Shown in pieces: positions 1,220 through 15,984 of a stretch of 15,984 nt of DNA. The DNA is taken from NCBI GenBank assembly GCA_002452325.1, contig DKFG01000025.1, positions 9,056 to 25,039 on the forward strand, read 5' to 3'. Made by a program: the position numbers and the translations under genes. The notes beneath the pieces were generated by a model. It was not told the origin of the DNA. It saw nothing but the letters and a program-made list of their open reading frames with translations, and did no database searches. The stretch's first letter is position 1. Every line of letters begins with the position of its first letter. The DNA is from Geobacter sp. UBA6802 (GTDB lineage Bacteria > Desulfobacterota > Desulfuromonadia > Geobacterales > Pseudopelobacteraceae).

Positions 1220-1561
1220 GTGGCCCGGATAACCCCACACATAGCCGCGCATGGTCTTGATCAAGGCTTGATTGACGAGATTGTAAACCGACTTCAGAAA
1301 ATAGCGCCGATGCAGATTTTTCTGTTTGGCAGTCAGGCAACCGGATCTGCCCATGCAGACAGCGACATAGACCTGCTGCTTATCAAGAAAGAAGTCTCAT
1401 CAGCCATAAAAGAGTCAATTGAAGCCAGAAAACTGTTGCGTGGTCTGGGACACTCCTTTGACCTGATTGTGACTACACCGGAAGAGTTTGAATTTTATCG
1501 TACCCAGGTGAACTCGGTGCATCATGCGGTGGCCAACTATGGGAGGCGGCTGTATGGGTAA
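1220..1561 (+). CDS. Minimal nucleotidyltransferase (MNT, Pol-beta superfamily), putative antitoxin of a HEPN/MNT pair
   Basis: The motif LFGSQATGSAHADSDIDLLL (nt 1328-1372) fits the GS...D.D nucleotidyltransferase signature. The protein is 113 aa. A GTG start at 1220 has AGAGG about 6 nt upstream. The 3' end overlaps the next ORF. Confidence 0.85.
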   Translation: MARITPHIAAHGLDQGLIDEIVNRLQKIAPMQIFLFGSQATGSAHADSDIDLLLIKKEVSSAIKESIEARKLLRGLGHSFDLIVTTPEEFEFYRTQVNSVHHAVANYGRRLYG

Positions 1562-1952
1562 TGGGCCGTTTCTTGATCAGCAGGCGATATTTGTCCTGAA
1601 GGCACGCCAGGACTTTTCGCTAGTCCATGAGGTTATGGGCAACAACAAGGTGGCGCCGGAAATCATGCTGTTTCATATTCAACAGGGCGTAGAAAAACTG
1701 ATAAAAGCCCTGTTCTGTATCCACGCTGTACGCTTCCCCAAAACCCATGATCTTGATGAACTTGTTGAGCTGGCCCTGGAGCACAACATACCTCTTCCAC
1801 CGTTTATGGAAACCTTGACGGAGCTTTCACCCTATGCCGTTGAATGGCGTTACGCCATCCTGCATGATGACCTGCACGACATAGCCGCCATGCTGGAGCA
1901 GGCTGAAAAGTTTTTGCAGTTTGTAGAGTCTTTCCTGAATTCACAAAAATAG
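1554..1952 (+). CDS. HEPN-domain protein, putative toxin partner of the MNT
   Basis: An R-x4-H motif is present in EWRYAILHD (Arg codon 1848-1850, His codon 1863-1865). I prefer the ATG at 1554 over the track start at 1524. It has GGAGG (1541-1545) about 8 nt upstream and overlaps the MNT stop by 8 nt (ATGGGTAA), the usual toxin-antitoxin coupling. About 132 aa and all-helical in appearance. Confidence 0.8.
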   Translation: MGNGPFLDQQAIFVLKARQDFSLVHEVMGNNKVAPEIMLFHIQQGVEKLIKALFCIHAVRFPKTHDLDELVELALEHNIPLPPFMETLTELSPYAVEWRYAILHDDLHDIAAMLEQAEKFLQFVESFLNSQK

Positions 1953-2023: not shown

Positions 2024-2034
2024 TGTCCGTCTAA
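2024..2034 (+). promoter_or_regulatory. Copy (a) of the recurrent motif TGTCCGTCTAA; candidate alternative-sigma -10 element or operator
   Basis: An exact 11-mer with 43 nt between it and the ATG at 2078, on the same strand as the gene. See the motif finding. Confidence 0.5.
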
Positions 2035-3936: not shown

Positions 3937-3947
3937 TGTCCGTCTAA
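3937..3947 (+). promoter_or_regulatory. Copy (b) of the recurrent motif TGTCCGTCTAA
   Basis: An exact 11-mer with 37 nt between it and the ATG at 3985. It sits exactly at the switch from GC-rich to AT-rich sequence. Confidence 0.5.
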
Positions 3948-3984: not shown

Positions 3985-4437
3985 ATGAAGATATTAGTGG
4001 CAGTTCTATCCTTGCTGGTTATTTCAATAAACAGCTTCGCATTAGATATTAAGGTAAATAGCATTACTAAAATGAAAAATAACATCAAAAAAACTGAAAT
4101 AACACAAATACCATCTACTGAAGAACGTAATGGATTATATCAAATGGTTAAAGAAGATACCCCTCAAAGTAATATGCTTCTTGAAGGCATAAAAGATGAT
4201 TTAACGCCTGAAGGTGTCAAGCTGTTTAACAAAGATAGAATAGGTTTCTTCAAATTGAATACTATCGAAATCAGAGGGTATCTTGTTGATTGCAATAGTA
4301 AACTTATTGCCCCTGCCTATTCTACAGACAAATATAATAAAACAATTATAATGTCTAAGACTTTTGAACCAAATTTCAGAAAAGCACAACCACAATTTGG
4401 AGAAGATATCGTTGTCACATTAAGTTGCAAAAGGTAA
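3985..4437 (+). CDS. Small AT-rich secreted protein of unknown function
   Basis: A strong RBS (AAGGAG, then 6 nt, then ATG). The signal peptide is MKILVAVLSLLVISINSFA|LD. The protein is 150 aa with two Cys and has no recognisable motif. Very low G+C compared with its neighbours. Confidence 0.7.
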   Translation: MKILVAVLSLLVISINSFALDIKVNSITKMKNNIKKTEITQIPSTEERNGLYQMVKEDTPQSNMLLEGIKDDLTPEGVKLFNKDRIGFFKLNTIEIRGYLVDCNSKLIAPAYSTDKYNKTIIMSKTFEPNFRKAQPQFGEDIVVTLSCKR

Positions 4438-4439
4438 GG

Positions 4440-4508
4440 ATGATATCGGTACTGTTCGGCAATACCATCCCGGCGGCGGCGGTCCGCGAAATTGAGGCGG
4501 CCAGCTAG
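4440..4508 (+). pseudogene. Possible relic of the 3' end of a GC-rich plus-strand gene (…ILFGNTIPAAAVREIEAAS*)
   Basis: A 22-codon GC-rich reading frame ends at the TAG at 4506-4508, 16 nt before hairpin 4525-4551. It lies between two AT-rich cassettes. Too short to assign. Confidence 0.3.
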
Positions 4509-4524
4509 TCAACTACACCAAACA

Positions 4525-4615
4525 CCCCGCCCGGTTCCTGCCGCGGCGGGGTGTTTCATTTTACTGCACCTGCTGCCTTGCCTTGGCCCGTTTTGCCAGC
4601 CCTTCCCGTACCGGC
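4525..4615. repeat. Direct repeat copy A: hairpin terminator 4525-4551 plus a duplicated gene 3' end
   Basis: Positions 4525-4602 match 6063-6140 with one mismatch in 78 nt (4535 t versus 6073 c, in the loop). Positions 4603-4615 still match 9 of 13. Confidence 0.95.
4561..4615 (-). pseudogene. Duplicated last 16 codons plus stop (VREGLAKRAKARQQVQ*) of the lipoprotein gene at 6099-7112
   Basis: The C-terminal peptide is identical to that of the 6099-7112 ORF. Upstream of it the frame runs into antisense AT-rich DNA, so the track ORF 4561-4758 is not a real gene. Confidence 0.75.
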
Positions 4616-4702
4616 GCTAAAATCGATTGTAAACACCTGATATTTAGAATAAATTGCTCATTACATTTTAGCTGTATAACATTTACATGGGAGGGAAATC
4701 TA

Positions 4703-6028
4703 ATGTTGGTGAGACGAATTACAGTTTCGTTGTTTTTAACCTGCTGCACATTGATCATGTGGACAAGTATGGTTAATGCAGAAACAGCAAAGCATAGAAG
4801 AAATTCGGAAACTGTTTCATCAAGTTACAATTCGGATATGGCAGTAGGAACAATAACCGACGGACTTGTTGCTTACTTTCCTTTTGAAAATGATGCACAA
4901 GACGTCAGCGGAAATTTTAATCATGGCCTCATTAATGGCAACGTAAAATTCGTAATTAGCGCCATAGGTAAAGGAGCTAAATTTAATGGCATAAATAGCC
5001 AAGGAGGGAATCAAAATCCGGACTACATACGCGTACCAAGTTCTGAAACTTTAAAATTTCACAACTCACTGACGGTATCATACTGGATTCACATTGACGG
5101 GAATCAAGTTCAAACTGCTGCAAACTGCTCTGGGGCAGTAGTATACGGTATTGGTGGTACAATTTTGGGAAAAAGCGGTGATCGCAACGGGTTTGTTTTT
5201 GGAGAATCAGAAAATGACAGTTCATTCATGATAAACCCCTACCAACGCGGAGTTGGCTTATCAAGCAAAAGTGGAGAATTGCCTAGTGCTTATAAAGCAT
5301 TTCGACATATAGCTTACACAATTGATGGCAATACTATAAGTCAATATGTCAACGGTGTTTTGGTTAACAAAGGTAATGGATCAGTTGATTTTTCATCTTC
5401 AAATTCGCGCGATATGTATATCGGCACCAGCTACAATCGCGGTGGAGCATGCTTGGACTACTGGTTCCAATTTGATGGAATAATTGATGAAGTTCGTATT
5501 TACAACCGAGCACTTTCACAATCAGAAATCCAACAAAATTTAAACACTGACAAGCTAAAAATGAAAAAACAGTATCGAAGCAATTACAAAAACATTAAAA
5601 CATTAGATGATCATGATATTTTTATAAAAACTTATACAGGTAAAGATCCTGGCAAATTAATACCAAAAGTAAAAAAAATGAAAGCGTCTGCAGAGTTGAG
5701 AGCAAAGCGGGAACAGGCTGAGGCTGCACGCAGAGAGCAAGATACTTCACGAAATTCATATTCAAGACCAGGAGGTTATACCTCAACTGGATCAACTTAT
5801 CCAACCTGTGGGTCGAATGATACATGCTTCGAAATAATTGAACAAAGCTGGACAGAAAAAAATTATTCAAAATACAGAATTCGTTGCACCAAAGGGCCTT
5901 ACACTGGCAGCGAAAAATGTCTTAGCAAATGGCATGATTCTGGAAAATGGGCATCGGGATGTGCTGTTGGGGACTATCATACATATGATTCTGCGCTGAG
6001 GGCTGGCAATTACAGTTGTTCTCCATAA
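4703..6028 (+). CDS. Exported LamG / concanavalin-A-like lectin domain protein with a Cys-rich C-terminal domain
   Basis: The likely start is the ATG at 4703, with GGGAGGG at 4689-4695; the track start at 4583 lies inside the duplicated segment. The signal peptide is MLVRRITVSLFLTCCTLIMWTSMVNA|E. The LamG_3-type pattern spans about nt 4850-5535 (LVAYFPFENDAQDVSGN...GKGAKFNG...DYIRVP...LTVSYWI...FRHIAYTIDGN...YVNGVL...MYIG...FDGIIDEVRIYNRALSQSEI). It is followed by the linker EQAEAARREQDTSRNSYS (5711-5764) and a ~85-aa C-terminus with 7 Cys. Confidence 0.85.
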   Translation: MLVRRITVSLFLTCCTLIMWTSMVNAETAKHRRNSETVSSSYNSDMAVGTITDGLVAYFPFENDAQDVSGNFNHGLINGNVKFVISAIGKGAKFNGINSQGGNQNPDYIRVPSSETLKFHNSLTVSYWIHIDGNQVQTAANCSGAVVYGIGGTILGKSGDRNGFVFGESENDSSFMINPYQRGVGLSSKSGELPSAYKAFRHIAYTIDGNTISQYVNGVLVNKGNGSVDFSSSNSRDMYIGTSYNRGGACLDYWFQFDGIIDEVRIYNRALSQSEIQQNLNTDKLKMKKQYRSNYKNIKTLDDHDIFIKTYTGKDPGKLIPKVKKMKASAELRAKREQAEAARREQDTSRNSYSRPGGYTSTGSTYPTCGSNDTCFEIIEQSWTEKNYSKYRIRCTKGPYTGSEKCLSKWHDSGKWASGCAVGDYHTYDSALRAGNYSCSP

Positions 6029-6062
6029 CCACCAGTTCAAATACGTTCTGTCTGTCCCTACT

Positions 6063-6153
6063 CCCCGCCCGGCTCCTGCCGCGGCGGGGTGTTTCATTTT
6101 ACTGCACCTGCTGCCTTGCCTTGGCCCGTTTTGCCAGCCCCTCACGCACCCGC
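6063..6153. repeat. Direct repeat copy B: bidirectional hairpin terminator 6063-6089 plus the genuine 3' end of the lipoprotein gene
   Basis: See copy A. The hairpin is ccccgcccgg-ctcct-gccgcggcgggg, followed on the plus strand by tgtttcatttt. Confidence 0.95.
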
Positions 6154-7112
6154 TGCAACGATTCCGTAACAACCTCGTCCGGCTTGGTCAGCAAGCCATC
6201 GGCACGGGTAATCAGACTGAGCGCGGCCTCAAGATCGCCATTCTCCTCGGCACAGACCCCCAGGTTGTGCTGTAAAGCCGCTGACTGCACCCCGCTGCCC
6301 CCGATCTGCTGCCAGATACTGCAAGCCCGGTCAAGGCGCTTGGCCTTGGCAAATTCCAGTGCATTCTCGAATGCCTGTTGATGGGAGGCCGGCAGCCCTT
6401 CGGTGGATTCCAGCAGGCGCACCTGGCTGGTGCGGTAGTACGGGGCAATATCCTTGCGCAGCCGCTCAATCACCTGCTGTTGTGCCTGGCGCAGCAGTTC
6501 TTCCGGTGTCGGCAACGGGCTGCTATCATCCCGGCAGCCGCTCTCCTCGCGTTGCTCCCGATACAGTTCCGAGAATACAACCCTGCCGCTCTGCACCTCA
6601 ATCAGGCGGGGGGTAACATCCAGCAGTGCGGTGCGACGAATGCAGGGGACCTTTGTGGTGGTCCAAGCCGTGCACTTGCCTTTGGCGTTCGTTGTACTGC
6701 ACACCCGCCGCTCCGTCAGGTAACGGCTATCGGTGACGCTGCGGGCTGTGATCTGGCCGGTGTAGATACCCCGCGCCCCGGTCAGCATCCCCACCTGCAC
6801 CACGTCTTCGGGGTGAAAATCGCCGGAGATGGACAGCTTCAGTTCGCTGAACACCTTATCCAGGTCGCTACGGCTGACCACCTGAAAGTACTGTTTACCA
6901 TCCAGCCTGATACCGGCCAGCATGGCCTCAATCTCAGCTGCGAGGGTCGCGCCGCCTGACCCGTTGAACGGCAACACCGCCACGGTCTTCAACCGGGCAG
7001 CCTCGATGGAACTACCCGGCTCCAGGGTGGTAATGGCTACCCTAGGAGCAGCGCAGGCGGCCAAAAGGCCACAGCAGATGAAAACCAGGCATAATCGCAG
7101 CAGATGGCTCAT
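6099..7112 (-). CDS. Lipoprotein with a CsgG/LpoB-like N-terminal domain and a TPR-like helical C-terminus
   Basis: The Met at 7112 is preceded by AAGGAG (7126-7121) with an 8-nt spacer. It opens the lipoprotein signal MSHLLRLCLVFICCGLLAAC (lipobox LLAAC). The track start at 7211 would overlap the upstream gene. VAVLPFNGSGG...LAAEIEAMLAG...YFQVVSRSDLDKVFSELKLSISGDF...GARGIYTGQI resembles CsgG-family lipoproteins. The C-terminal ~100 aa (AFENALEFAKAKRLDRACSIWQQI...NLGVCAEENGDLEAAL) looks TPR-like. Confidence 0.7.
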   Translation of the reverse strand: MSHLLRLCLVFICCGLLAACAAPRVAITTLEPGSSIEAARLKTVAVLPFNGSGGATLAAEIEAMLAGIRLDGKQYFQVVSRSDLDKVFSELKLSISGDFHPEDVVQVGMLTGARGIYTGQITARSVTDSRYLTERRVCSTTNAKGKCTAWTTTKVPCIRRTALLDVTPRLIEVQSGRVVFSELYREQREESGCRDDSSPLPTPEELLRQAQQQVIERLRKDIAPYYRTSQVRLLESTEGLPASHQQAFENALEFAKAKRLDRACSIWQQIGGSGVQSAALQHNLGVCAEENGDLEAALSLITRADGLLTKPDEVVTESLQRVREGLAKRAKARQQVQ

Positions 7113-7137
7113 ACAGACGTCTCCTTGTCTTGCTGTG

Positions 7138-10100
7138 TTACCACGTACCCACCTTAACCGCCTGCAGACGCTTGCTTGGTCCCAGCGGCGCGGCATACAC
7201 CATGTTGCCATCCACCGCCGGGGTCACCATCCGGTCACCGTAGAGATGACTTTCCCACAGGGGTACTTTTTCATGTTCTTTACCAGTTGCTGGATCAAGC
7301 ATCAGTAGGTTGACCAGATTGAGGATCGAGGTCTCGCCAGGTTTTGGCTTGTTTTCAGGCTCAAGCGTATAAACGGTCAGCCAGTATTTGCCGATAACCG
7401 GCCGGGCATAGGATTCTATGCTGGTTTCCAGCTGCCAGACCAAATTGCCCAACGGCTTGAAACCGATCTTGCGCAGCAGCGCCGGACGGACCCGAAACGC
7501 CTGCAGCCCGCCTTCGGTTTGAACAATCAGGCGGCTGTTGTGCAGCAAGGGCCGCACCAGGGCGGCCGCACCCAGTGCTACCATCTGCTGTGGTTGCAGT
7601 GTAACGGCATCCAGCACATGCAGTTCCTTGTCTTTGGTGGGCACAAAAGCCAAACCTGCTGCCACCTCAGGCATACCGGCATTTTTGACGCTGAAACGAC
7701 TGAACTTGCCGGAGATCAGATCAAAGCGTTTCAGCCCCTGTTTATTCAGGTAGTAAGCTCCATCGCCAACAATCCGCAGCGCATCCTCATCCCGTATCAC
7801 TGATTCCAGTTCTCCCAGGTTCCGTTCCCAGCGCAGCGTACCGGTGCTGCGGTCAACCGCCCAGAGAGTGCCGCTGTAGTCAGCCACCAGCGCCAGATTA
7901 CGCCAGAACTGGGCGCCCCCTGCCACCTGCTTGCCGCTATAGGCAAACTGCCAGACAATGCTGCCGTCAGCTGGCCGGATACGGGTAAGGGTATGGCTGT
8001 CTGCCGTCACAAACAGGTCACCATCCACCAGCCGCGGCGAGTGCCTGATCTCGCCCCCTAACTGCCGCTTCCAGCGCAGTGTGCCGTTTGACCGGTCAAA
8101 GGCGTAGAGATGGCCGTCTTCATGCCCGATCACCACCAGGTTGCCGACGATCAGCGGGCCGGATGCAAAGCCGTAGATCGACTTGTTTTCACGTTCTGTA
8201 ATGCTGGATGCCCACAGCACCGGCGACAGCAAGGTAGTGCTGCCCCCTGCCTTTTCGATGATGCTGATCAACTCAGCCAAGCCGCCCTGCTTGGCCAGAT
8301 ACAGCGGACTGGCGCCTTTGCTGTCAGCCTTGTTGGGATCGACCTTTCTGGCAAGCAGCCAGCGCACCAACGCCAGGTTTTCCTCACGTACCGCCTGCTG
8401 CAGTGCGGTAACGCCCTTGCTGTCGGCTTGGTTAAAATCTGCCTTGTAGCGGGACAGCAGCTCTGCCATGACAACACTCTTCACCATCACCACGGCAGGC
8501 TCTGCCAGAAAATCATCTGGTATGTTGTGCTTCTGCAGCAGATGCTGTCTATACTGATTAAAGTCGTTCTCCGGCGTTGCTACGCCGTTTGGTGTTGCCC
8601 GGTGTTCCAACAGGATACGGGCATTGGCAAGCCGGTCTTTTGCTACAGCCTCAAGCAGGGCAAAGGAGAGCAGTTCCGGATTGAGCTGCCTGCTAAACTG
8701 CTGCAGAGCCCGCGTCAGGCGCCCGGCACCTTTTTCTTCCTCTGCCAATGCCCTGAACAGTGTGCGTAGCATCACTGCAGAGAATGTCTGCCCCTTAAAG
8801 GCCAGTGCTGCATCAAGGTGTCCATTAGACAGGGCCACCTCCATCGGTGTCTTGTCAAACTGGCCCTGCTGAATACGGGCGCCCTTTTGCAACAGCAGAC
8901 GGATCGCCTCCAGATTACCTTTTTCAGCTGCCTGATGCAGGGCGGTATTGCCGCTCTTGTCCTTGAGATCCAGCGGGCTGCCGGCATCGATCAACAGCTT
9001 CATCACAGCTGCCGCTCCCTTTTCGCGCCGGGCAGCATCCATCAGCGGTGAAGTGCCGTAGTTGTCCTGATACTGCAACAGAGTTGTTGACAACGGCTTG
9101 CCATCTCTGCTCCGTTTGCGCATCTCCTGCAACAGGAACGAGACCACCTCCGGGCTAGCCTTCATGGCAGCCACATGCAGGCAGCTGCCACCGGTAACAC
9201 CATGCAGGCTGCTTGAGTCTTTGAGCAACTTGCCGGTAATGCCCAGGTCTGCGCCATGGGCCAAAAACAGCTTAAGGATATCCGGCTTCCGGGTGCCGCA
9301 GGCATCAAGGGTTGCCTCAGGATCAGGCTTGACACCCCGTTTGAAAAGCTCCTGCACCAGGGCTGGCGATTCGGTCCAGAACACCGCCATCTGCAGCGGC
9401 GTTGCGCCGCTGTCACTGCGCAAGTTCGGGTCAGCACCACGCCTGAGCAGTTCGATGGCCAGCTCCGGCTGTCTGGTCCAGGCTGCCAGGCTGACCAAGG
9501 GACGTTTGAAAAATCCACGGGCATTGCTATCAGCCCCTTTATCCAACAGATAGCGCACCACTGCCGGCTGTTTGTGTTCAACCGCATTAGCGACTGCCCG
9601 GTCTCCCTCTTTACCCCGTACCGGTGCGCCAGCCTGCACCAGTTCCTTTACCACGGCCAGATGGCCCTTTTGGGCGGCAACACTCAGGGCGGTTTCAACT
9701 TCGGAACTCCAGTGCGAGAGTTTTACCTTACGGTCCAGCAGCAGCTTCACCACTTCAGGATGACCGTTTTCAGATGCCTTGATCAGCGGGTTTTCGCTGT
9801 AGCTGTCCAGAGCCTCCGGATTTAGCCCCAGTGCAATCAGACGTCTTGCCATACCGGTTTGGCCCTTGACTGCGGCAATGTGCAAAAGGGTCTGTTGCTT
9901 GTCGGTCACGATTTTGGGATTTGCTCCGGCAACCAGCAAACGCTCAAAGACCTTGTCATGGCCACCAACCACAGCCCAGGCAAGTGCGCTCATGCCATCA
10001 TTGCGCTGATCCGTGGCCTTAGCTCCCTTTTGCAGCAGCAGTTCAATTGCCGGAAGACCGCCATCCACCGCAAACATCAGTGCATTACTACCGCGCGGGT

Positions 10101-10299
10101 TACGCTTGTGCAGATCAACTCCACTGCCCAACAGCGCCTTCATCCGGGCCAGATCACCTTTTTTTGCAGCCAGCATCAACGGTGTATTGCCGTCCTTATC
10201 CGGCGTATCAACAGCACCGGTTGCAGCGTATAGCGACTGCGCAGCTATGAAGAACAGTTGGACAAGCAGGCAGAGGACAGGAATCAGGCGCAGAAACAT
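7138..10299 (-). CDS. Exported ankyrin-repeat (about 15 or more repeats) + PQQ-like beta-propeller protein
   Basis: GGAG lies 7 nt upstream of the ATG. The signal peptide is MFLRLIPVLCLLVQLFFIAAQSLYA|A. ANK units of the form G.TPLM.AA..G....V..LL..GA recur through about aa 35-680 (roughly nt 8260-10200). The C-terminal ~350 aa carries PQQ/BamB-type repeats (GHLYAFDRSNGTLRWKRQL, TLTRIRPADGSIVWQF, GTLWAVDRSTGTLRWERNL). It is 25 nt upstream of the lipoprotein gene, so the two probably form an operon. Confidence 0.9.
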   Translation of the reverse strand: MFLRLIPVLCLLVQLFFIAAQSLYAATGAVDTPDKDGNTPLMLAAKKGDLARMKALLGSGVDLHKRNPRGSNALMFAVDGGLPAIELLLQKGAKATDQRNDGMSALAWAVVGGHDKVFERLLVAGANPKIVTDKQQTLLHIAAVKGQTGMARRLIALGLNPEALDSYSENPLIKASENGHPEVVKLLLDRKVKLSHWSSEVETALSVAAQKGHLAVVKELVQAGAPVRGKEGDRAVANAVEHKQPAVVRYLLDKGADSNARGFFKRPLVSLAAWTRQPELAIELLRRGADPNLRSDSGATPLQMAVFWTESPALVQELFKRGVKPDPEATLDACGTRKPDILKLFLAHGADLGITGKLLKDSSSLHGVTGGSCLHVAAMKASPEVVSFLLQEMRKRSRDGKPLSTTLLQYQDNYGTSPLMDAARREKGAAAVMKLLIDAGSPLDLKDKSGNTALHQAAEKGNLEAIRLLLQKGARIQQGQFDKTPMEVALSNGHLDAALAFKGQTFSAVMLRTLFRALAEEEKGAGRLTRALQQFSRQLNPELLSFALLEAVAKDRLANARILLEHRATPNGVATPENDFNQYRQHLLQKHNIPDDFLAEPAVVMVKSVVMAELLSRYKADFNQADSKGVTALQQAVREENLALVRWLLARKVDPNKADSKGASPLYLAKQGGLAELISIIEKAGGSTTLLSPVLWASSITERENKSIYGFASGPLIVGNLVVIGHEDGHLYAFDRSNGTLRWKRQLGGEIRHSPRLVDGDLFVTADSHTLTRIRPADGSIVWQFAYSGKQVAGGAQFWRNLALVADYSGTLWAVDRSTGTLRWERNLGELESVIRDEDALRIVGDGAYYLNKQGLKRFDLISGKFSRFSVKNAGMPEVAAGLAFVPTKDKELHVLDAVTLQPQQMVALGAAALVRPLLHNSRLIVQTEGGLQAFRVRPALLRKIGFKPLGNLVWQLETSIESYARPVIGKYWLTVYTLEPENKPKPGETSILNLVNLLMLDPATGKEHEKVPLWESHLYGDRMVTPAVDGNMVYAAPLGPSKRLQAVKVGTW

Positions 10300-10332
10300 T
10301 GGAATACTCCATGGTGGCGATTGTTACTGTTG

Positions 10333-10342
10333 TAGACGGACA
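10333..10342 (-). promoter_or_regulatory. Copy (d) of the recurrent motif (TGTCCGTCTAc on the minus strand)
   Basis: The reverse complement of 10332-10342 reads TGTCCGTCTAC. It has 33 nt between it and the minus-strand ATG at 10299 and is oriented with that gene. Confidence 0.5.
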
Positions 10343-10391
10343 AAACGGATGTTGCAACCACAGAAACCTTCTTTATGCGAATGAAACAAAC

Positions 10392-10420
10392 TTGTCCCAA
10401 CCCAAATTCATCTGTATACT
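10392..10420 (+). promoter_or_regulatory. Candidate sigma-70-type promoter for the sigma-factor gene
   Basis: TTGTCC (10392-10397), a 17-nt spacer, then TATACT (10415-10420) preceded by TG. This would give a very short leader of about 8 nt before the ATG at 10436, with no visible Shine-Dalgarno. Pattern only. Confidence 0.35.
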
Positions 10421-10435
10421 CTGCCGCAATTTGCC

Positions 10436-11323
10436 ATGCTCAAACTATTCAAACAACAACAAATCCCCGTAAAACCACCCGCTGGAGGCTTTGATAGTGC
10501 CACCTGCAAACGGCTATTGACCGAGCAGTTGGACTATATCACCAAGGTCTGCGAGAAGGCTGTTGGTCAGGCTGAAACCGCCCACAGCCAGTGCATTGCC
10601 GGTGAAGGGGGCCATGGCTATCTGGTGGAACGGGCCGGACGGCTGGACAAAGATGAGCTGTTCGTGCAGGTGCTGGATCATCTGCAGGAAGACGACTACC
10701 GACGGCTGAGGGAGTTCAAGGGCAACTCATCCATCACCACCTACCTGACCGCCATCATCAGCCGTCTGGTGGTGGATATCGTCCGCAGCCGCACTGGCCG
10801 TAACCGGGCCAAAGAGCGGGCCGAACGGTTTGGTGAGCTAGGCCGCCGCACCTATGAACTGGTTGTGCAAGCCAGGCATACGATTAACGAGGCTGTTGAG
10901 ATCTTGCAGGTCAACTATGGCATAACTGCCGATGCAGGCCAGTTGCAGCCCATACTTGATGAGATGCAGGGCCGCAGCAGTCGCCACCAGACCGATACCG
11001 ACCATGAGACCGCCTGGAGTGACAACGGTGAACTGGTCAGCATCCAACGCGGGACACCTGAGCAGAAAACCTCAGACAAACAGCTTGAACGCAAACGTAA
11101 CGAGGTGCTCAGGCAGGTGCTGGACAGCATGACGGCAGAGGACAAGCTGCTGATCAGGCTGCGCTTTCCTCTGGATGAGACAGCCGATCCGCTGGATAGC
11201 GCCACCGTGGCCAGAATGCTGGGCCTCAACCAACAGGAGGTGGAGCGCCGCACCCGGCGCATCCTGACAAACTGCCGGGAACTGCTGCTGAAACAGGGAA
11301 TTTCACTGGATGCATTATTATGA
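10436..11323 (+). CDS. Sigma-70 family RNA polymerase sigma factor, ECF-like but unusually long (295 aa)
   Basis: Region-2-like sequence: DDYRRLREFKGNSSITTYLTAIISRLVVDIVRSR (about nt 10690-10800). Region-4 HTH-like sequence: LLIRLRFPLDE...SATVARMLGLNQQEVERRTRRILTNCRELL (about nt 11150-11300). About 100 aa lie between them and about 75 aa precede region 2. An anti-sigma gene follows. Confidence 0.8.
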   Translation: MLKLFKQQQIPVKPPAGGFDSATCKRLLTEQLDYITKVCEKAVGQAETAHSQCIAGEGGHGYLVERAGRLDKDELFVQVLDHLQEDDYRRLREFKGNSSITTYLTAIISRLVVDIVRSRTGRNRAKERAERFGELGRRTYELVVQARHTINEAVEILQVNYGITADAGQLQPILDEMQGRSSRHQTDTDHETAWSDNGELVSIQRGTPEQKTSDKQLERKRNEVLRQVLDSMTAEDKLLIRLRFPLDETADPLDSATVARMLGLNQQEVERRTRRILTNCRELLLKQGISLDALL

Positions 11324-11331
11324 AACAGAAC

Positions 11332-11342
11332 TGTCCGTCTAA
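11332..11342 (+). promoter_or_regulatory. Copy (c) of the recurrent motif TGTCCGTCTAA, in the sigma / anti-sigma spacer
   Basis: An exact 11-mer with 22 nt between it and the ATG at 11365. It shares the 13-mer cTGTCCGTCTAAc with copy (a). Confidence 0.5.
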
Positions 11343-11364
11343 CTATGATGAACGGAATTGAGCC

Positions 11365-12021
11365 ATGAACCAGGCTACTGAAAAATACAACCGCGACCAG
11401 CAGATCGGGCGCAGTATTGCCGCTGCCATCCAGCAGCAGCAAACCGCCCCTACCTGCCTGAGCGATGAGCAGTTGGCAAGCCTGCTGGACAACCGCCTGG
11501 CAAGTGGCGAGCGGGAGCGTTGCCTTGTTCATATTGCGGCCTGTGATAGCTGTCTGGCACGTTACACCATGACCGCTTCTCTGTTGCAAACTGCACCGCA
11601 GAGAGAACAGGCATCACGTACCAGCGGCTTTCTCTATGGTGGTCTTGTTGTTGCCGCAGTGGCATTGCTGGCTATTGGATTGGTTGTGCAGCAGCAACCT
11701 AGTAAAACCGTTGAGCAGGTGCAAACTGCAGGTCATGCCGCCATTGGCGGCATAAACACCCCCAGCGCAGAAATAGTTCGCCTGCACCAGCGCCTGAAAA
11801 TCTGGTCCAATGAGACCATCAATGCGATTGAGGCAAAGCAGTATGAGCTGATTGATAAAAGCCTGCCCGCCACCCTGCAACAGGAAGCCCTCAGTCTTGG
11901 GGATGCTACTTTGGCTGATAAGCTGGAACCGCTGGTAAAACATCTGGCAGAGCCGAAGGATACGGATGAATGGTGCGAGGAGCTTAATATGATCATCAAA
12001 CTTAATTCAAGGTGCCAATAA
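11365..12021 (+). CDS. Zinc-finger (ZAS-type, HxxxCxxC) single-pass anti-sigma factor
   Basis: The motif HIAACDSC (H56, C60, C63) is at nt 11530-11553. One transmembrane segment, GFLYGGLVVAAVALLAIGLVV, spans about aa 87-108. It is followed by a ~110-aa helical extracytoplasmic tail. The gene lies directly downstream of the sigma gene. Confidence 0.8.
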   Translation: MNQATEKYNRDQQIGRSIAAAIQQQQTAPTCLSDEQLASLLDNRLASGERERCLVHIAACDSCLARYTMTASLLQTAPQREQASRTSGFLYGGLVVAAVALLAIGLVVQQQPSKTVEQVQTAGHAAIGGINTPSAEIVRLHQRLKIWSNETINAIEAKQYELIDKSLPATLQQEALSLGDATLADKLEPLVKHLAEPKDTDEWCEELNMIIKLNSRCQ

Positions 12022-15000
12022 ATGATGTCTGATAAACACGCACATTTAGACTCGAATACATCGAGGTGGGCTATAATCGCACCCGCCGCCATAATGCGAA
12101 TGGATGCATCAGTCCAGAAGCTTTTGAGATTCAACAAGGCACTTAACATTTTATTCGCAATTATCCGGCAGGATCAGGTTGGAGGTATTATACCGAAGCA
12201 ATCACTCGTTTTTTTTCTGTCATTTTTTTTTATAACAGTTTTATCCGGTTGTGCCATCAGACCTGTCAATAGCTGGCAAGCAGGGTTCAGTACTATCCAG
12301 GAAAACAACAGTTCGGCAAGCAGCGGTCAATTAGTCGTACAGGTGCCCCACGCCAGCAATATAGCTTCAGTTGCCATAAGCCCGAACGGCAGATATTACG
12401 CTTCGACTAGTATTGATAATCAGATCAATATCTGGTCCGCCGATGCCGTTATCGTCAAATCCTATAAAGACAGAGACAATCTGGAGGATGGAATTTACTA
12501 TAAGCTAGTTTTTTCGTCTAATTCAAGATATTTAACCTGTGTATCGCCATACAGAATTACGATATTCGATCTTGAAACCGGCAGTATTCGCCGCATGAAT
12601 TTATTCAACAGCAAAAAAAATGACAATGGAAACTTCTATTCCGGTTTTGTCGAGCTGTCCCCAGACGGCAATCTGGGTATTGCGCTGGTTTCGGAAAAGA
12701 CCATGAATTCTAAGCTGGTGTTGTTCAGAGTCGATAAAGATGAAGTTACCGATCTGCTTGAATTCAAACGGAAGGTTCAGCGTTTCGGCACCTTCAGTCA
12801 AGATGGTAAATACATCGTCATGCCAAGTGGTTATGATTATACAAAGGGATATATCTATACCATTTCCACGGGGGAGATGAAAAGCATTGGTATAGACGAT
12901 GACATGTGGATTCAGCATGCGGATATATATGGCAATAATGTTATCTTTACCAGTAAACAGGAAAACGTATACGTTTATTCTCTTGATGGTAAGTTACAGA
13001 AAAAGATTCAACTACAAGATTATTTTCACAGCATTGAAGCCATTCACCTGATAAAAAACACCTTGGTAGTCGGGCTGGAAGGGAATGTTGAGTTTGTGGA
13101 TATTGAAGCCGGTCGTACGGTAGGCAGCATTAACGGTTTTTTGGCTGATGTGGATAAATATTCAGGCACGATATTGGTGTCACATGACAGTAAAATGAAA
13201 CGTGGTACCTTGAGTAACGGCCAGAATTACGAATACCAGCTGGGCAGGATCAACATCGACTCGTTAACCGAAGAAGCTAGCTTGAGCGATGATGTAATTT
13301 ATTCGAAAATAATCAGCAACATGATCTTTGCCACTAAAGCGGACAAGAGCCTCCATGTATGGGATATCAATGGCAAATTCATCAACAGCATTACTGGGGT
13401 AAATTACATCGAATATCGTAACAACCAAAACTGGACACCTTTCGGCTACATCACCGGCAACAATGCTGTGCTGGCCGGAACTAAAGAAACATTGAGTCTC
13501 ATAGATACAAAATCTTCAGCTGTGCTGGAATCATTCAACTTACCACAGGTTTCCTCTGTTGATGCGAGCGCCGATTTCAAACTGGTTGTCGGTGGTTACT
13601 CGGACGGTTATGTGGGGGTTTGGGCCACGGACGGGAAATTACTGCAGCGTTTCAAGGCCCATATTGGCAATATCAGCCATGTATCAATCGAGCCTAACAG
13701 TAGCAGAATTCTGACTGTGGGGGATGGTGTCTTCAAGTTATGGTCAGTTGGCGGCAGACTGCTTACTAATGGCAATTGTAACGATTATAAGGCTACAGCC
13801 GGAAAATTTACTGGCAAAGGGAGTCACTACATTATTGCCTGTGGCAAAAAAGATGTTTTCAGCGGTAGTTATGAGTCACTACGCTTCAGGCATCACGACT
13901 CTAAACTCTACTTGTACGATAATGTAGATTCGGTCGGAAAGGAAATGAATGCTGTTTTCCCGAGAATAGAAGATCGTGGACTGGTGACGAATATCTATGT
14001 TGATGACCGAAATGGCAACATAATCACTACCCACGACACTACCCATTACAGCAGGCATTATACGAACGAGAAGTGGGAGGATTTTACAAATTTCGAGAAT
14101 TATATTATCTGGACAGCTGAAGGCAAATTTTTGAAATTTGCCAATAAAAGGGATAGGATTTTTGACAAAACACTATTGCCGGCTGAAGTGCTGATGAATG
14201 TCAATGGCCCATTCAAGAATATTATTGAGATTGCAAAAGACTACGAGAGTATCAGCAAAGCGGGTGATTTCGATACAATCAAACAGGTGCGTATATCAAA
14301 GGATCGAAAATATCTGGTGGCAGGGCTGACAGATGGCACCATAAGAATTATCAATACAAAAAATCAGAATATGATTTTCCTGCTGTCCAGAGGGAATAAA
14401 TGGGTTATGTACTCGGCTGACGGCATCTATGACTCGTCTATAGATGGCGGTGATTTGTTAAAAATCAGAAAGGGAGCAGCAGTATTTTCCATTGACCAGT
14501 TCGCCGTTGCCAAAAACAGACCTGATATTCTCCTGCAAAGAATGGAATTGGGGACGACCGAACAGATTCAGCATTACAGGAGACTGGCACAGGCTAGAGC
14601 GAGCAAGTTTGTCGCCGGAGGGCAGGGGTATACCAGTATTCCGGCCTCCTCGATTGTGCAGGCTAGGCAGCGCGGCAAAAAAGCACAGCTGGAGCTAAAT
14701 TTTAAAGGATACAACTCACCGCTCAAAGCCTACAACATCTTTATTAATGATGTCCCGCTGTATGGCTCTCAGGGTAAGGATATCAGCGGCTTTGAGGCGC
14801 AGATCAGTGTAGAGGTTGAGCTGACATCTGGCAAAAACAAAATCGAGGTATCGTGCGTCAACGGCTTTGGGGTTGAGTCATACCGCTCGTTGCAGTACCT
14901 GAACTATGACAAGCCGGTTAAGGGTGATCTATATTATGTCGGCCTAGGCGTATCAAAATACAAGGAGACCGCGATCAACCAATTGCTCTATGCCCACAAG

Positions 15001-15789
15001 GATGCTATCGATCTAGGGAATATCTTCAAGGCTGCGGACCGGACGGAGTTCGCCAATGTCTATGCCGTAACCTATACCGATGAGCAGGTAACAAGAGAGA
15101 CCATCAAAGAGCTGAAGAGCTTGCTCAAGAACGCTAGGGTTGACGACACCTTTGTCCTCTTCATCGCCGGTCATGGTGTGCATGATACCGATGAAGCATC
15201 CATCTACTATTACATCACCTACGACACCAGGCTGGACGATCTGAAGTCCACGGCGGCATCATTTGAACTTATCGAAGACACCTTGCAGCAGATTGCGCCA
15301 CGGAAAAAGCTGTTTTTAATGGATACCTGTGAGTCCGGGGAGCTCGATACCGTTGAAAACAACGCTCTGTTTGCATCTGCCGACAGACAGAAAATCAGAG
15401 CCCGTTCCTTGAAGGTAAAGAAAAAAAAATATGCGAGTACAAGCTTTACCAGTCATAGTCGCAAGTACCTGCTGGATAAGGACCGTTATATATATAATAA
15501 TGTTGCCAGAAGGTCGGGTGCCATAGTCTTTTCCAGTTCACGGGGCGGGGAATTTTCCTACGAGCCGATCTACTTTAATAAGAATGAAAACGGTTATTTC
15601 ACAAAAGAATTAATTGCGGCACTACAGAGTGGAACTAGCAACATAAAACAAAAATCCCTGTCTATTCGTTATATTAAGGAAATCGTAACCAGGAAGGTAT
15701 CGGAACGGACGAAAGGACTACAGAATCCAACCATTGATAGGGATAATCTCTACCAGTCCGTTACTCTGCCTACAGTCGGTAAAAAATAA
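12022..15789 (+). CDS. Membrane/lipid-anchored WD40-like beta-propeller + caspase-fold (peptidase C14, orthocaspase-like) protein
   Basis: The ATG at 12022 abuts the anti-sigma stop (TAAATG), with AAGGTG 7 nt upstream. A hydrophobic segment with a lipobox, LVFFLSFFFITVLSGC (Cys77), follows an unusually long 60-aa N-terminal region; starts at Met25 or Met27 are possible. WD40-like units include ASVAISPNGRYYASTSIDNQINIWS, GYSDGYVGVWATDGKLL..FKAHIGNISHVSIEP and LVAGLTDGTIRIIN. The C14 domain runs from about D969 (nt 14926) and has the dyad FIAGH(1051)G at nt 15172-15174 and MDTC(1103)ESG at nt 15328-15330. Confidence 0.9.
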   Translation: MMSDKHAHLDSNTSRWAIIAPAAIMRMDASVQKLLRFNKALNILFAIIRQDQVGGIIPKQSLVFFLSFFFITVLSGCAIRPVNSWQAGFSTIQENNSSASSGQLVVQVPHASNIASVAISPNGRYYASTSIDNQINIWSADAVIVKSYKDRDNLEDGIYYKLVFSSNSRYLTCVSPYRITIFDLETGSIRRMNLFNSKKNDNGNFYSGFVELSPDGNLGIALVSEKTMNSKLVLFRVDKDEVTDLLEFKRKVQRFGTFSQDGKYIVMPSGYDYTKGYIYTISTGEMKSIGIDDDMWIQHADIYGNNVIFTSKQENVYVYSLDGKLQKKIQLQDYFHSIEAIHLIKNTLVVGLEGNVEFVDIEAGRTVGSINGFLADVDKYSGTILVSHDSKMKRGTLSNGQNYEYQLGRINIDSLTEEASLSDDVIYSKIISNMIFATKADKSLHVWDINGKFINSITGVNYIEYRNNQNWTPFGYITGNNAVLAGTKETLSLIDTKSSAVLESFNLPQVSSVDASADFKLVVGGYSDGYVGVWATDGKLLQRFKAHIGNISHVSIEPNSSRILTVGDGVFKLWSVGGRLLTNGNCNDYKATAGKFTGKGSHYIIACGKKDVFSGSYESLRFRHHDSKLYLYDNVDSVGKEMNAVFPRIEDRGLVTNIYVDDRNGNIITTHDTTHYSRHYTNEKWEDFTNFENYIIWTAEGKFLKFANKRDRIFDKTLLPAEVLMNVNGPFKNIIEIAKDYESISKAGDFDTIKQVRISKDRKYLVAGLTDGTIRIINTKNQNMIFLLSRGNKWVMYSADGIYDSSIDGGDLLKIRKGAAVFSIDQFAVAKNRPDILLQRMELGTTEQIQHYRRLAQARASKFVAGGQGYTSIPASSIVQARQRGKKAQLELNFKGYNSPLKAYNIFINDVPLYGSQGKDISGFEAQISVEVELTSGKNKIEVSCVNGFGVESYRSLQYLNYDKPVKGDLYYVGLGVSKYKETAINQLLYAHKDAIDLGNIFKAADRTEFANVYAVTYTDEQVTRETIKELKSLLKNARVDDTFVLFIAGHGVHDTDEASIYYYITYDTRLDDLKSTAASFELIEDTLQQIAPRKKLFLMDTCESGELDTVENNALFASADRQKIRARSLKVKKKKYASTSFTSHSRKYLLDKDRYIYNNVARRSGAIVFSSSRGGEFSYEPIYFNKNENGYFTKELIAALQSGTSNIKQKSLSIRYIKEIVTRKVSERTKGLQNPTIDRDNLYQSVTLPTVGKK

Positions 15790-15984
15790 GGGGCTGTCCT
15801 AGATAACTGAATTTGGTCTAGGATAGCTTATGCGTAAAAGTCGCCTTAGCAGGCCGTTGAAAATCGACTCGATTTGAGTCCATTCCATCCAACCGGCTGA
15901 TTTTTTGTTCATTTTGTTGTTTCTGATGAAAAGCAGTATCAGATTGCGAATAGTTAAAAGCGGCTCTTCGTCGAAATGAGTGGG

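What the first reader, a model, noticed from the sequence alone, without database searches (positions are those of the whole stretch)
6099..15789. Sigma / zinc-finger anti-sigma / anchored WD40-caspase cassette, divergent from an exported ANK-PQQ + CsgG-like lipoprotein operon
**Seen in the sequence.**
- The sigma gene (10436-11323), the HxxxCxxC single-pass anti-sigma gene (11365-12021) and a 1255-aa gene (12022-15789) run in the same direction.
- The anti-sigma stop and the next start abut (TAAATG at 12019-12024), with AAGGTG 7 nt upstream. This arrangement suggests translational coupling.
- The large protein has an anchor/lipobox, WD40-like propeller repeats and a C-terminal caspase-fold domain with an intact His/Cys dyad (H1051, C1103).
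- The divergent operon encodes a Sec-signal protein with about 15 or more ankyrin repeats fused to a PQQ-type propeller, plus a lipoprotein with CsgG-like and TPR-like parts.
- Every component other than the sigma factor is predicted to be extracytoplasmic and is built from protein-interaction repeats (WD40, ANK, PQQ, TPR).

**Inference.** This may be an envelope-located caspase wired to a sigma/anti-sigma switch. The caspase could be the sigma-controlled output (self-destruction, defence or surface remodelling). Alternatively it could be the protease that attacks the ~110-aa periplasmic tail of the anti-sigma, a site-1 role usually filled by DegS- or Prc-type proteases. I know of no characterised sigma/anti-sigma module that uses a caspase-fold protease, but I cannot search to confirm this.

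**Caveat.** The caspase gene is clearly more AT-rich than the sigma and anti-sigma genes, so the linkage could be a recent insertion rather than an old functional unit.
Basis: partly seen in the sequence, partly recalled or inferred. Interest (0 to 1): 0.8.

Follow-up and report, generated by a model that had tools for sequence, protein, structure and literature searches.

The report
Sigma switch with swappable exported protease
A Geobacter-relative (Trichlorobacter-like) bacterium has a sigma/anti-sigma gene switch whose downstream "slot" here holds a recently acquired, exported caspase-like protease; sister strains hold other proteases in the same slot, and a shared 11-base promoter-like signal ties the neighbouring genes into one probable regulon.

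Summary

- **Sigma switch.** The sigma belongs to a small family, about 79 clusters at 50% identity. Each is paired with a zinc-finger (C-H-C-C), single-pass anti-sigma.
- **Conserved signal.** An 11-mer, TGTCCGTCTAA, lies just after the sigma stop in 39 of 67 related loci (at most one mismatch). In the window it also precedes the Ank-PQQ, orf150 and PcfJ-like genes. It looks like an ECF-type -10 element.
- **Caspase gene.** It has no such signal. It follows the anti-sigma gene with no gap and no predicted terminator.
- **Recent arrival.** Its closest relative (85% DNA identity) stands alone elsewhere. Homology starts at 12211. The native ATG is now ATA. The last 15 anti-sigma codons were replaced.
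- **Exchangeable slot.** Sister loci with 77-83% identical sigmas carry a C10 or an FtsH-like protease there.
- **Recurrent link.** Caspase genes lie downstream in 10 of 34 family loci and upstream in 0 of 32.

Best reading: the caspase is a sigma-controlled exported output. A site-1-protease role is not supported, because the anti-sigma tail does not co-vary with the cargo. Precedents for a caspase-fold/sigma link exist (DdvA, Craspase, and comparative surveys of 2012 and 2021).

The parts
10392..10420 (+). Sigma-70-type promoter-like site TTGTCC-17-TATACT ahead of the sigma gene. The TGTATACT part is conserved in the Trichlorobacter-clade loci.
   Evidence: Consensus scan. Upstream regions of L099, L046, L103 and L101 compared. 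The block shared with sister loci starts at about 10407-10413.
10436..11323 (+). Sigma-70-family factor of 295 aa: an N-terminal extension of about 85 aa, region 2, a middle region and region 4.
   Evidence: TIGR02937 45.2 bits against a cut-off of 42.9. AF2 model and Foldseek: all significant hits are sigma factors. 83% identical to a protein annotated as a T. lovleyi sigma. Family size: 79 clusters at E<=1e-30.
11332..11342 (+). TGTCCGTCTAA, a family-wide promoter-like (-10-type) element. It lies 8 nt after the sigma stop and 23 nt before the anti-sigma ATG. It is the inferred sigma-dependent promoter of the anti-sigma-caspase unit.
   Evidence: Exact match. Same place, with at most 1 mismatch, in 39 of 67 family loci. 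41 distinct exact 10-mer sites against 2.1 expected. Purine 7 nt downstream in 40 of 41 sites.
11365..12021 (+). Single-pass ZAS-type anti-sigma of 218 aa: cytoplasmic C31/H56/C60/C63, membrane helix at about residues 88-108, periplasmic tail 109-218. The last 15 codons (about 11975-12021) are junction sequence.
   Evidence: Sequence. Invariant H/C/C in family alignment A3. Tail residues 109-203 are 76/67/51% identical to L046/L099/L103, but residues 204-218 only 13-20%. blastn homology ends at 11974-11982.
11983..12210 (+). Junction DNA with no blastn match in the sister sigma loci or in L047. It supplies the new anti-sigma C-terminus and the 56-codon N-terminal extension of the caspase ORF. 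The GGAGG at 12181-12185 and the ATA at 12190-12192, seen only in the MAFFT alignment with L047, are the homologue's ribosome site and (mutated) start.
   Evidence: blastn boundaries. MAFFT alignment with L047. Start-codon inventory.
12022..15789 (+). WD40-propeller / Ig-like / Peptidase_C14 protein. Signal peptide with lipobox Cys77 (12250-12252). Propellers at about residues 98-800. C14 domain at residues 976-1243 (14947-15750). H1051 at 15172-15174 and C1103 at 15328-15330.
   Evidence: Pfam. AF2. Foldseek finds tandem propellers. 85% DNA identity to the stand-alone gene in L047 over 12211-15789. dN/dS 0.13. No terminator-like site between it and the anti-sigma gene.
10332..10342 (-). TGTCCGTCTAC (1 mismatch), 33 nt upstream of the Ank-PQQ start codon.
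   Evidence: The exact motif lies at the equivalent place before the Ank-PQQ orthologue in L099.
7138..10299 (-). Exported protein of 1053 aa with about 18 ankyrin repeats and a PQQ/BamB-like propeller. Probable regulon member.
   Evidence: Pfam. Signal peptide. 88.8% DNA identity to L099, next to its sigma. Absent from L046 and L103.
6099..7112 (-). CsgG-like lipoprotein of 337 aa, 25 nt downstream of Ank-PQQ. Part of a 4439-7132 block absent from L099.
   Evidence: Pfam CsgG 31.3 bits, partial match. Lipobox LAAC. Gene call of 337 aa. blastn.
3937..3947 (+). Exact TGTCCGTCTAA, 38 nt before orf150 (3985-4437), a small exported protein.
   Evidence: orf150 is conserved in L099. L099 has no 10-mer site (at most 1 mismatch) before its orf150; there the gene follows PcfJ and a 171-aa gene on the same strand.
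2024..2034 (+). Exact TGTCCGTCTAA, 44 nt before the PcfJ-like gene (2078-3925).
   Evidence: The same motif lies before the PcfJ orthologue in L099.

Best explanation
**The switch (inferred from family features).** The sigma (10436-11323) and its zinc-finger, single-pass anti-sigma (11365-12021) form an extracytoplasmic-signal switch. The family is small and centred on Geobacteraceae.

**The promoter (inferred).** When released, the sigma reads promoters marked by TGTCCGTCTAA. One lies in the sigma/anti-sigma spacer. Others lie before the Ank-PQQ, orf150 and PcfJ-like genes.

**The cargo slot (shown by comparison).** Whatever lies directly downstream of the anti-sigma gene is transcribed with it. 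This position is an exchangeable cargo slot that repeatedly holds exported or membrane proteases:
- C14 here.
- C10 or FtsH-like in sister strains.
- BepA-like M48-TPR, DegP-like trypsin-PDZ, other caspases or a TPR-CHAT protein in more distant members.

**This window (shown).** The cargo is a horizontally acquired lipoprotein with a WD40 double propeller and an intact caspase domain. Its own start signal was lost. It is now read from the anti-sigma unit.

**Function (inferred).** The caspase is an envelope-located output of the switch, with the propellers choosing its substrates. It is not the switch's input.
For: **Motif**
- Three exact 11-mers and one with 1 mismatch lie 23-44 nt before start codons on the correct strand. 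By my arithmetic, about 0.008 exact matches are expected by chance in the window.
- The motif lies just after the sigma stop in 39 of 67 loci. There are 41 distinct exact sites against 2.1 expected, with a purine 7 nt downstream in 40 of 41.
- It also precedes an S41 protease (L103), an M48-TPR protease (L012) and, with 1 mismatch, a TPR-CHAT protein (L101).

**Transcription unit**
- There is no gap and no terminator-like site between the anti-sigma and caspase genes.

**Association**
- Caspases lie downstream in 10 of 34 loci against 0 of 32 upstream. Any of six protease families: 19 of 34 against 2 of 32.
- The slot holds C10 in L046 and an AAA-M41 protease in L099.
- The cluster proteases inspected in relatives have N-terminal signal peptides or hydrophobic leaders, apart from one truncated ORF.

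**State of the gene**
- The caspase gene is under purifying selection (dN/dS 0.13). Its dyad is invariant.
Against: - No transcript or binding data exist. That this sigma reads the motif is inferred from co-occurrence only.
- The -35 region is weakly conserved.
- The caspase gene's ATG is mutated to ATA. The 56-codon extension could impair export, so the gene may be decaying or poorly expressed.
- The closest caspase homologue works without any sigma nearby, and L047 has no motif.
- Apart from C14, the protease families used in the enrichment count were chosen from genes first seen beside these sigma loci. Only the caspase count is an unbiased test.
Confidence: 0.6

Rival explanations
1. **Split DdvA-like input.** The periplasm-facing WD40-caspase senses a protein signal through its propellers. 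It then clips the 110-aa periplasmic tail of the anti-sigma (site-1 cleavage). This allows RseP-type cleavage and sigma release. Co-expression with the anti-sigma would give positive feedback.
For: - Precedent of a caspase-fold (TPR-CHAT) domain fused to a ZAS anti-sigma and proposed to act as its own site-1 protease, and of Craspase cleaving a sigma-binding protein (PMC11506125).
- A caspase lies directly after the anti-sigma in the window, L012 and L095.
- The best, though weak, PDB matches of the anti-sigma profile are DdvA chains (E 0.045 and 0.34).
- Both proteins are predicted to face the periplasm.
Against: - The anti-sigma tail is conserved (76/67/51% identity) in loci whose slot holds C10 or FtsH-like proteases, or is unknown, so tail and protease do not co-vary.
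- The caspase is a recent arrival, and its closest homologue has no anti-sigma partner.
- Several clusters carry up to four or five different proteases. That pattern fits a regulon better than a dedicated site-1 enzyme.
- No anti-sigma-C14 fusion was found, although the only search for one was uninformative.
Confidence: 0.12
2. **Hitch-hiker.** The region downstream of the anti-sigma gene is simply a recombination or insertion hot spot in a mosaic island. The caspase gene landed there by chance and has no functional relation to the switch. It may be on its way to becoming a pseudogene.
For: - GC drops to 0.43, and homology with the stand-alone copy in L047 starts at 12211.
- The ATG is changed to ATA.
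- Contigs from two assemblies end 87-313 nt after the gene; the window itself ends 195 nt after it.
- The surroundings are a mosaic: the LamG/CsgG block is absent from L099, the 186-aa gene is lost, and dS values are discordant.
- IS-like ORFs bracket the sigma/anti-sigma pair in L005.
Against: - The slot holds a protease in all three sister lineages where it can be seen, each of a different catalytic class.
- Caspases recur only downstream.
- The 1255-codon ORF is intact, opens exactly at the anti-sigma stop, and shows dN/dS 0.13.
Confidence: 0.2
3. **Defence or suicide module.** The sigma switch senses phage or envelope attack and induces the caspase as a death or defence effector, as in protease-activated defence systems.
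For: - DdvS/DdvA regulates defence islands.
- Weak similarity to the NCBIfam 'caspase, EACC1-associated type' model (73.6 bits).
- A HEPN/MNT pair lies nearby.
- The Ank part of the Ank-PQQ protein matches PADLOC ankyrin models.
Against: - The NCBIfam score is far below its cut-off of 140.
- The only PADLOC hits to the caspase protein are marginal (E about 6e-4, 15-17 bits), and the sigma and anti-sigma have none.
- The protease is exported, so it would not reach cytoplasmic targets.
- The companions in relatives resemble the envelope quality-control proteases BepA, DegP, Prc and FtsH.
- No cas, CBASS or effector genes were seen in the window.
Confidence: 0.06

Closest known systems
[quoted passage not shown]
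   Same: - Zinc-binding C-H-C-C cytoplasmic anti-sigma domain and a single membrane helix.
- A repeat array plus a caspase-fold His/Cys protease on the periplasmic side of the same genetic module.
   Different: - There the protease is a CHAT domain fused to the anti-sigma, and the repeats are TPR.
- Here it is a C14 domain on a separate, recently acquired lipoprotein with WD40 repeats, and the anti-sigma tail is only about 110 aa.
- DdvS drives CBASS and CRISPR genes; none are present here.
Metacaspase-sigma-70 operons noted in Myxococcus and other Deltaproteobacteria (Asplund-Samuelsson et al. 2012, PMC3501461)
   Same: A Peptidase_C14 gene in the same predicted operon as a sigma-70-family gene, in deltaproteobacterial lineages.
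   Different: - That was only an operon-database observation, with no anti-sigma, promoter or cargo-exchange analysis.
- Whether those sigmas belong to this family was not tested.
RpoE/RseA envelope-stress system with its protease regulon (DegP, BepA) and DegS site-1 cleavage (my own knowledge, not checked in the papers read here)
   Same: - Sigma plus a single-pass anti-sigma.
- A -10 element ending TCTAA that resembles the sigma-E type TCnaA.
- Regulon or cluster members in relatives are BepA-like M48-TPR, DegP-like trypsin-PDZ, Prc-like S41 and FtsH-like proteases.
   Different: - The anti-sigma is ZAS-type, not RseA-like.
- The sigma has an 85-aa N-terminal extension and a middle region.
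- The promoter-like element lies between the sigma and anti-sigma genes.
- Cysteine proteases (C14, C10, CHAT) serve as cargo.
Craspase (type III-E Cas7-11 / Csx29 TPR-CHAT cleaving Csx30, which holds an ECF sigma), as cited in PMC11506125
   Same: A caspase-fold protease genetically coupled to a sigma factor and its inhibitor.
   Different: It is cytoplasmic, RNA-guided and uses a CHAT domain. There are no CRISPR genes here, and the protease here is exported.
EACC2-caspase neighbourhoods with an ECF sigma and a DUF1822 TPR protein (Kaur et al. 2021, PMC8195603)
   Same: A caspase with variable sensor repeats next to an ECF-type sigma, proposed to end in transcriptional output.
   Different: - No EACC domain or DUF1822 was detected here.
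- The EACC1-type caspase model scores below its cut-off.
- The domain order here is repeats first, caspase last, behind a lipoprotein signal.

Membership tests
Sigma-70 family (ECF-like) sigma factor | Recognisable region 2 and region 4 | tested here: met
   - TIGR02937 scores 45.2 bits against a cut-off of 42.9 over residues 89-283.
- Pfam Sigma70_r4 scores 20.4, below its cut-off of 24.1.
- AF2 and Foldseek: all 18 hits at E<=1e-3 are sigma factors aligned over about 280-310 columns.
Sigma-70 family (ECF-like) sigma factor | Minimal two-domain ECF architecture (about 170-200 aa, no region 3) | tested here: not met
   - The protein is 295 aa, with an N-terminal extension of about 85 aa and about 65 aa between regions 2 and 4.
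- The best structural matches are group 1 and group 3 sigmas: SigB, sigma-A and sigma-32.
ZAS-type class I transmembrane anti-sigma | HxxxCxxC with an upstream Cys ligand, followed by one membrane helix, encoded next to the sigma | tested here: met
   - H56, C60 and C63 are invariant and C31 nearly invariant in 15 family members.
- The hydrophobic segment at residues 88-108 is visible in the sequence.
- zf-HC2 scores 16.7 here, below its cut-off of 22.2, but 26.5 in the L008 homologue.
ZAS-type class I transmembrane anti-sigma | Physical binding and inhibition of the cognate sigma | not testable with these tools
   This needs pull-down or two-hybrid assays, or a multimer model.
Peptidase C14 (caspase / orthocaspase) | C14 profile match above the curated threshold, with the catalytic His-Cys dyad | tested here: met
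   - PF00656 scores 61.8 bits against a cut-off of 21.4.
- GHG (H1051) and DxCxSG (C1103) are invariant in 19 homologues.
- The AF2 model has pLDDT mostly 71-93 over model residues about 820-1040 (ORF about 876-1096), with a low-confidence stretch just after the catalytic Cys (model 1049-1097).
Peptidase C14 (caspase / orthocaspase) | Proteolytic activity and cleavage specificity | not testable with these tools
   This needs an enzyme assay.
DdvA-type anti-sigma (self-contained caspase-fold site-1 protease) | TPR-CHAT domain fused to the periplasmic end of the anti-sigma | tested here: not met
   - The anti-sigma is 218 aa, and its 110-aa tail has no protease domain.
- The protease is encoded by a separate gene and is C14, not CHAT.
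Craspase / type III-E associated sigma module | Adjacent Cas7-11, Csx29, Csx30 and Csx31 genes | tested here: not met
   No such domains appear in any large ORF of the window by Pfam, NCBIfam or PADLOC.
EACC1-associated caspase conflict systems | Caspase of the EACC1-associated type reaching the NCBIfam cut-off, with an EACC partner | tested here: not met
   NF047832 scores 73.6 bits against a cut-off of 140. No partner was detected.
Autoregulated ECF-type operon | Family-specific promoter motif next to the sigma/anti-sigma genes | tested here: inconclusive
   The conserved TGTCCGTCTAA motif is strongly enriched and consistently positioned. That this sigma recognises it is inferred, not shown.
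CsgG family (curli secretion channel lipoprotein) | Full-length CsgG domain | tested here: inconclusive
   PF03783 scores 31.3 bits, above its cut-off of 20.8, but covers only profile positions 40-100 of 210. The lipobox is present.

The most novel reading that the evidence does not exclude
**Modular sensor protease.** The exchangeable protease behind the anti-sigma gene may be both output and input. In this reading it is a separately encoded, periplasmic sensor-protease: repeat array for recognition, caspase or another fold for cleavage. It would clip the short anti-sigma tail when it meets its ligand.

Swapping the cargo gene would then re-programme what the same sigma switch responds to. 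This would be a split, modular version of the fused DdvA TPR-CHAT anti-sigma. It would also be the first site-1 role for a C14 caspase.
Probability: 0.12. Interest if true: 0.8.

Novelty: new variant of a known kind. Interest (0 to 1): 0.55.

Why it matters
- **A concrete regulatory handle.** Bacterial caspase homologues have almost no assigned physiological roles. Here an exported WD40-caspase gets a defined sigma, anti-sigma and 11-base promoter-like signal that can be tested with simple reporters.
- **An unusual family-level design.** One conserved switch carries a cargo position that different lineages fill with proteases of different catalytic classes: C14, C10, M41, M48, S1, S41 and CHAT. 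This is a natural experiment on how envelope proteolysis is put under signal control.
- **A link to recent work.** It ties into findings that caspase-fold proteases and sigma/anti-sigma pairs work together (DdvA, Craspase).

Tried and rejected
- **Fusion search.** A profile of the anti-sigma N-terminal domain was searched for anti-sigma-caspase fusions. It gave only 4 short hits and was uninformative.
- **Foldseek on the caspase model.** The results were swamped by WD40 proteins and gave no separate read-out for the C14 domain.
- **PADLOC.** Only marginal hits to the caspase protein (E about 6e-4) and ankyrin-repeat hits to the Ank-PQQ protein; nothing for the sigma or anti-sigma.
- **Plasmid search.** blastn of the sigma/anti-sigma DNA against plasmids found no match.
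- **Rfam and tRNA scans.** Nothing was found.
- **Minus-strand ORF fragment at the window end.** Pfam gave no hit, so the idea that it is a transposase remnant is unsupported.
- **ECF classification paper.** No supplement is held and no protease context is mentioned.
- **Failed look-ups.** P0008 is not on record.
- **Longer contig beyond the caspase gene.** None is available. The ENA and Logan assemblies end 87-313 nt after the gene.
- **A clear -35 element.** Only a weak A-rich or GGAAA-like signal was found.
- **Considered and rejected: the Ank-PQQ plus CsgG-like genes as an old operon partner of the sigma.** Ank-PQQ is shared only with L099, and the CsgG-like gene with no other locus.

Full report
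**1. Observation**

The anti-sigma stop and the next ATG abut (TAAATG, 12019-12024), with AAGGTG 7 nt upstream.

Profile searches confirm most domain calls:
- Peptidase_C14 at residues 976-1243, 61.8 bits against a cut-off of 21.4.
- WD40.
- Many ankyrin repeats plus PQQ_2.
- A partial CsgG match.

H1051 and C1103 are present and invariant in 19 homologues. An AlphaFold model shows a signal helix, tandem propellers, an Ig-like sandwich and a confident alpha/beta domain. Foldseek confirms the tandem WD40 propellers.

The sigma call is weak in Pfam. It passes NCBIfam TIGR02937, and every significant Foldseek match of its model is a sigma factor.

The anti-sigma has the full C-H-C-C ZAS ligand set and one hydrophobic helix. 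GC falls from about 0.56 to about 0.43 at about 11900.

**2. Origin**

The best-named relatives of the sigma are annotated as Trichlorobacter lovleyi proteins (83% and 79% identity). Others are from Geobacteraceae. The same locus was assembled independently in ENA, Logan and JGI data.

**3. The caspase gene is a recent arrival**

- Its closest homologue, P0065 (86% amino-acid identity, 1199 aa), is a stand-alone gene. It lies between an RNase T gene and a two-component pair.
- DNA homology (85%) runs from window position 12211 to the stop codon.
- P0065 begins with a canonical lipoprotein signal peptide (MLRQVLRFFLSFLFITALAGC).
- In the window the matching position keeps the GGAGG ribosome site, but ATG has become ATA (12190). 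The frame stays open for 56 codons up to the ATG at 12022.
- The gene shows dN/dS 0.13 against its homologue.
- The ENA and Logan contigs carrying the gene end 87-313 nt after it.

**4. The sigma/anti-sigma pair is a conserved block with variable flanks**

| Locus | Sigma identity | Shared block in window coordinates | What follows the anti-sigma |
|---|---|---|---|
| L046 (T. lovleyi) | 83% | 10476-11974 | Peptidase_C10 protein, then a 2010-aa Lcl_C protein |
| L099 | 77% | 10407-11982 | An 80-aa gene, an FtsH-like AAA-M41 protease, then FHA, PP2C and kinase genes |

- The anti-sigma periplasmic tail (residues 109-203) is 76%, 67% and 51% identical in L046, L099 and L103. The last 15 residues are unrelated. 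The breakpoint therefore lies at about 11975-11982.
- Ank-PQQ, the PcfJ-like gene and orf150 are shared with L099 at 87-89% DNA identity. The block 4439-7132 (LamG plus CsgG-like) is not shared.
- A 186-aa zinc-ribbon membrane protein gene precedes the sigma in L046, L099 and L103. It is missing in the window.

**5. The theme is old**

I collected 69 non-redundant family loci from genome and metagenome scans. The table counts loci with at least 4 kb of flank on the stated side.

| Gene class | Downstream, same strand | Upstream |
|---|---|---|
| Caspase (C14) | 10 of 34 | 0 of 32 |
| Any of six protease families | 19 of 34 | 2 of 32 |

- A caspase lies directly after the anti-sigma in L012 and L095. 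In L010 it lies between the sigma and anti-sigma genes.
- The commonest partner is a BepA-like M48-TPR protease, often with an SLH protein.
- Geobacter hydrogenophilus (L008) carries, in order after the anti-sigma: a 151-aa gene, trypsin-PDZ, a 251-aa gene, M48-TPR, trypsin, FGE-sulfatase and a caspase.
- L101 ends in a TPR-CHAT protein.
- The cluster proteases inspected have N-terminal signal peptides or hydrophobic leaders, except one truncated ORF.
- More distant sigma relatives, in loci labelled Aminicenantes and Clostridia, lack this context.

**6. A promoter-like element ties the genes together**

TGTCCGTCTAA occurs in the window at four places:

| Position | Strand | Match | Location |
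|---|---|---|---|
| 11332 | + | exact | 8 nt after the sigma stop, 23 nt before the anti-sigma ATG |
| 3937 | + | exact | before orf150 |
| 2024 | + | exact | before the PcfJ-like gene |
| 10342 | - | 1 mismatch | before Ank-PQQ |

- By my arithmetic, the expected number of exact 11-mer matches in the window is about 0.008.
- Across the loci there are 41 distinct exact 10-mer sites against 2.1 expected. T precedes the core in 95% of sites, and a purine lies 7 nt after it in 40 of 41.
- In 39 of 67 loci the 11-mer (at most 1 mismatch) sits just after the sigma stop.
- It also precedes the 186-aa gene, Ank-PQQ and PcfJ in L099, an S41 protease in L103, M48-TPR in L012 and an SLH gene in L014.
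- It ends in TCTAA and contains CGTC, like ECF -10 elements. This comparison rests on my own knowledge. The -35 region is only weakly conserved.
- No copy precedes the caspase gene, and L047 has none.
- No terminator-like site separates the anti-sigma and caspase genes.
- The sigma gene itself has a conserved sigma-70-like TGTATACT.

**7. Interpretation**

*Shown:*
- A conserved sigma/ZAS anti-sigma block.
- A family-specific motif in the spacer and before neighbouring genes.
- An exchangeable protease slot.
- A recent, intact caspase insertion.

*Inferred:*
- The sigma reads the motif.
- The caspase is co-transcribed with the anti-sigma gene.
- The caspase is an exported output.

The site-1-protease idea is disfavoured. 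Tail and cargo do not co-vary, and several clusters carry many proteases. It is not excluded.

**8. Comparison with known systems**

- DdvA fuses a periplasmic TPR-CHAT domain to a ZAS anti-sigma. Craspase cleaves a sigma-binding protein.
- Metacaspase operons with sigma-70 factors were noted in 2012.
- EACC2-caspase neighbourhoods with an ECF sigma were described in 2021.

This locus differs from these in four ways:
- A separate C14 lipoprotein with WD40 repeats.
- The cargo-slot behaviour.
- The spacer-located motif.
- An atypically long sigma.

Verdict: a new variant of a known kind, moderately interesting and readily testable.

Noticed in passing
window 1220-1952: An MntA-like nucleotidyltransferase (113 aa) overlaps a HEPN-domain protein (142 aa). 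This is a type VII toxin-antitoxin-like pair.
   Followed up: no
window 5-1105; L022 11250-12083: A WG-repeat protein lies at the left edge of the window. Another WG-repeat gene follows the sigma in L022, upstream of a caspase.
   Followed up: no
window ~4530-4570 and ~6060-6098: Two copies of a GC-rich hairpin plus T-run (CCCCGCCCGG[T/C]TCCTGCCGCGGCGGGGTGTTTCATT) bracket the AT-rich LamG gene. The whole 4439-7132 block (LamG plus CsgG-like) is absent from sister locus L099.
   Followed up: partly
L046 6667-7227, L099 9354-9914, L103 2558-3118: A 186-aa protein (N-terminal CxxC...CxxC zinc ribbon, C-terminal membrane helices) with its own TGTCCGTCTAA motif precedes the sigma gene in three sister loci. 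It is missing in the window. It may be an extra regulator.
   Followed up: partly
L046 7274-7462: A duplicated fragment of the sigma 5' end (80% identical to window 10413-10601) lies in front of a 758-aa lipoprotein gene inserted upstream of the real sigma gene.
   Followed up: no
L005 8750-9888 and 12417-13555: The sigma/anti-sigma pair is bracketed by two inverted copies of a 101-aa plus 278-aa ORF pair. The arrangement looks IS-like, like a composite transposon.
   Followed up: no
L005 15470-20659; L101 5121-11523: A recurring sub-module: a 152-aa protein, a CHASE2 sensor and a repeat-plus-caspase-fold protein. The last is WD40-C14 in L005 and TPR-CHAT in L101.
   Followed up: partly
window 15800-15984 (- strand): An open reading frame runs off the window end and converges on the caspase gene. 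It has no Pfam match. Two assemblies break 87-313 nt after the caspase gene, which hints at a repeat.
   Followed up: partly
window 7138-10299 vs L099; 10436-11323 vs L099: Divergence is discordant. dS is 0.46 for Ank-PQQ but 1.0 for the adjacent sigma gene, so the neighbourhood is a recombination mosaic.
   Followed up: no
L092 / L028 / L093 / L096: A distinct sub-family with short (about 195-aa) anti-sigmas has a conserved seven-gene tail in L092 and L028: unknown membrane proteins, then an SLT transglycosylase identified in L092 and a caspase. L096 also has a downstream caspase. L093 shares only the first genes before its contig ends. The motif lies after the sigma and before the first tail gene.
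   Followed up: partly
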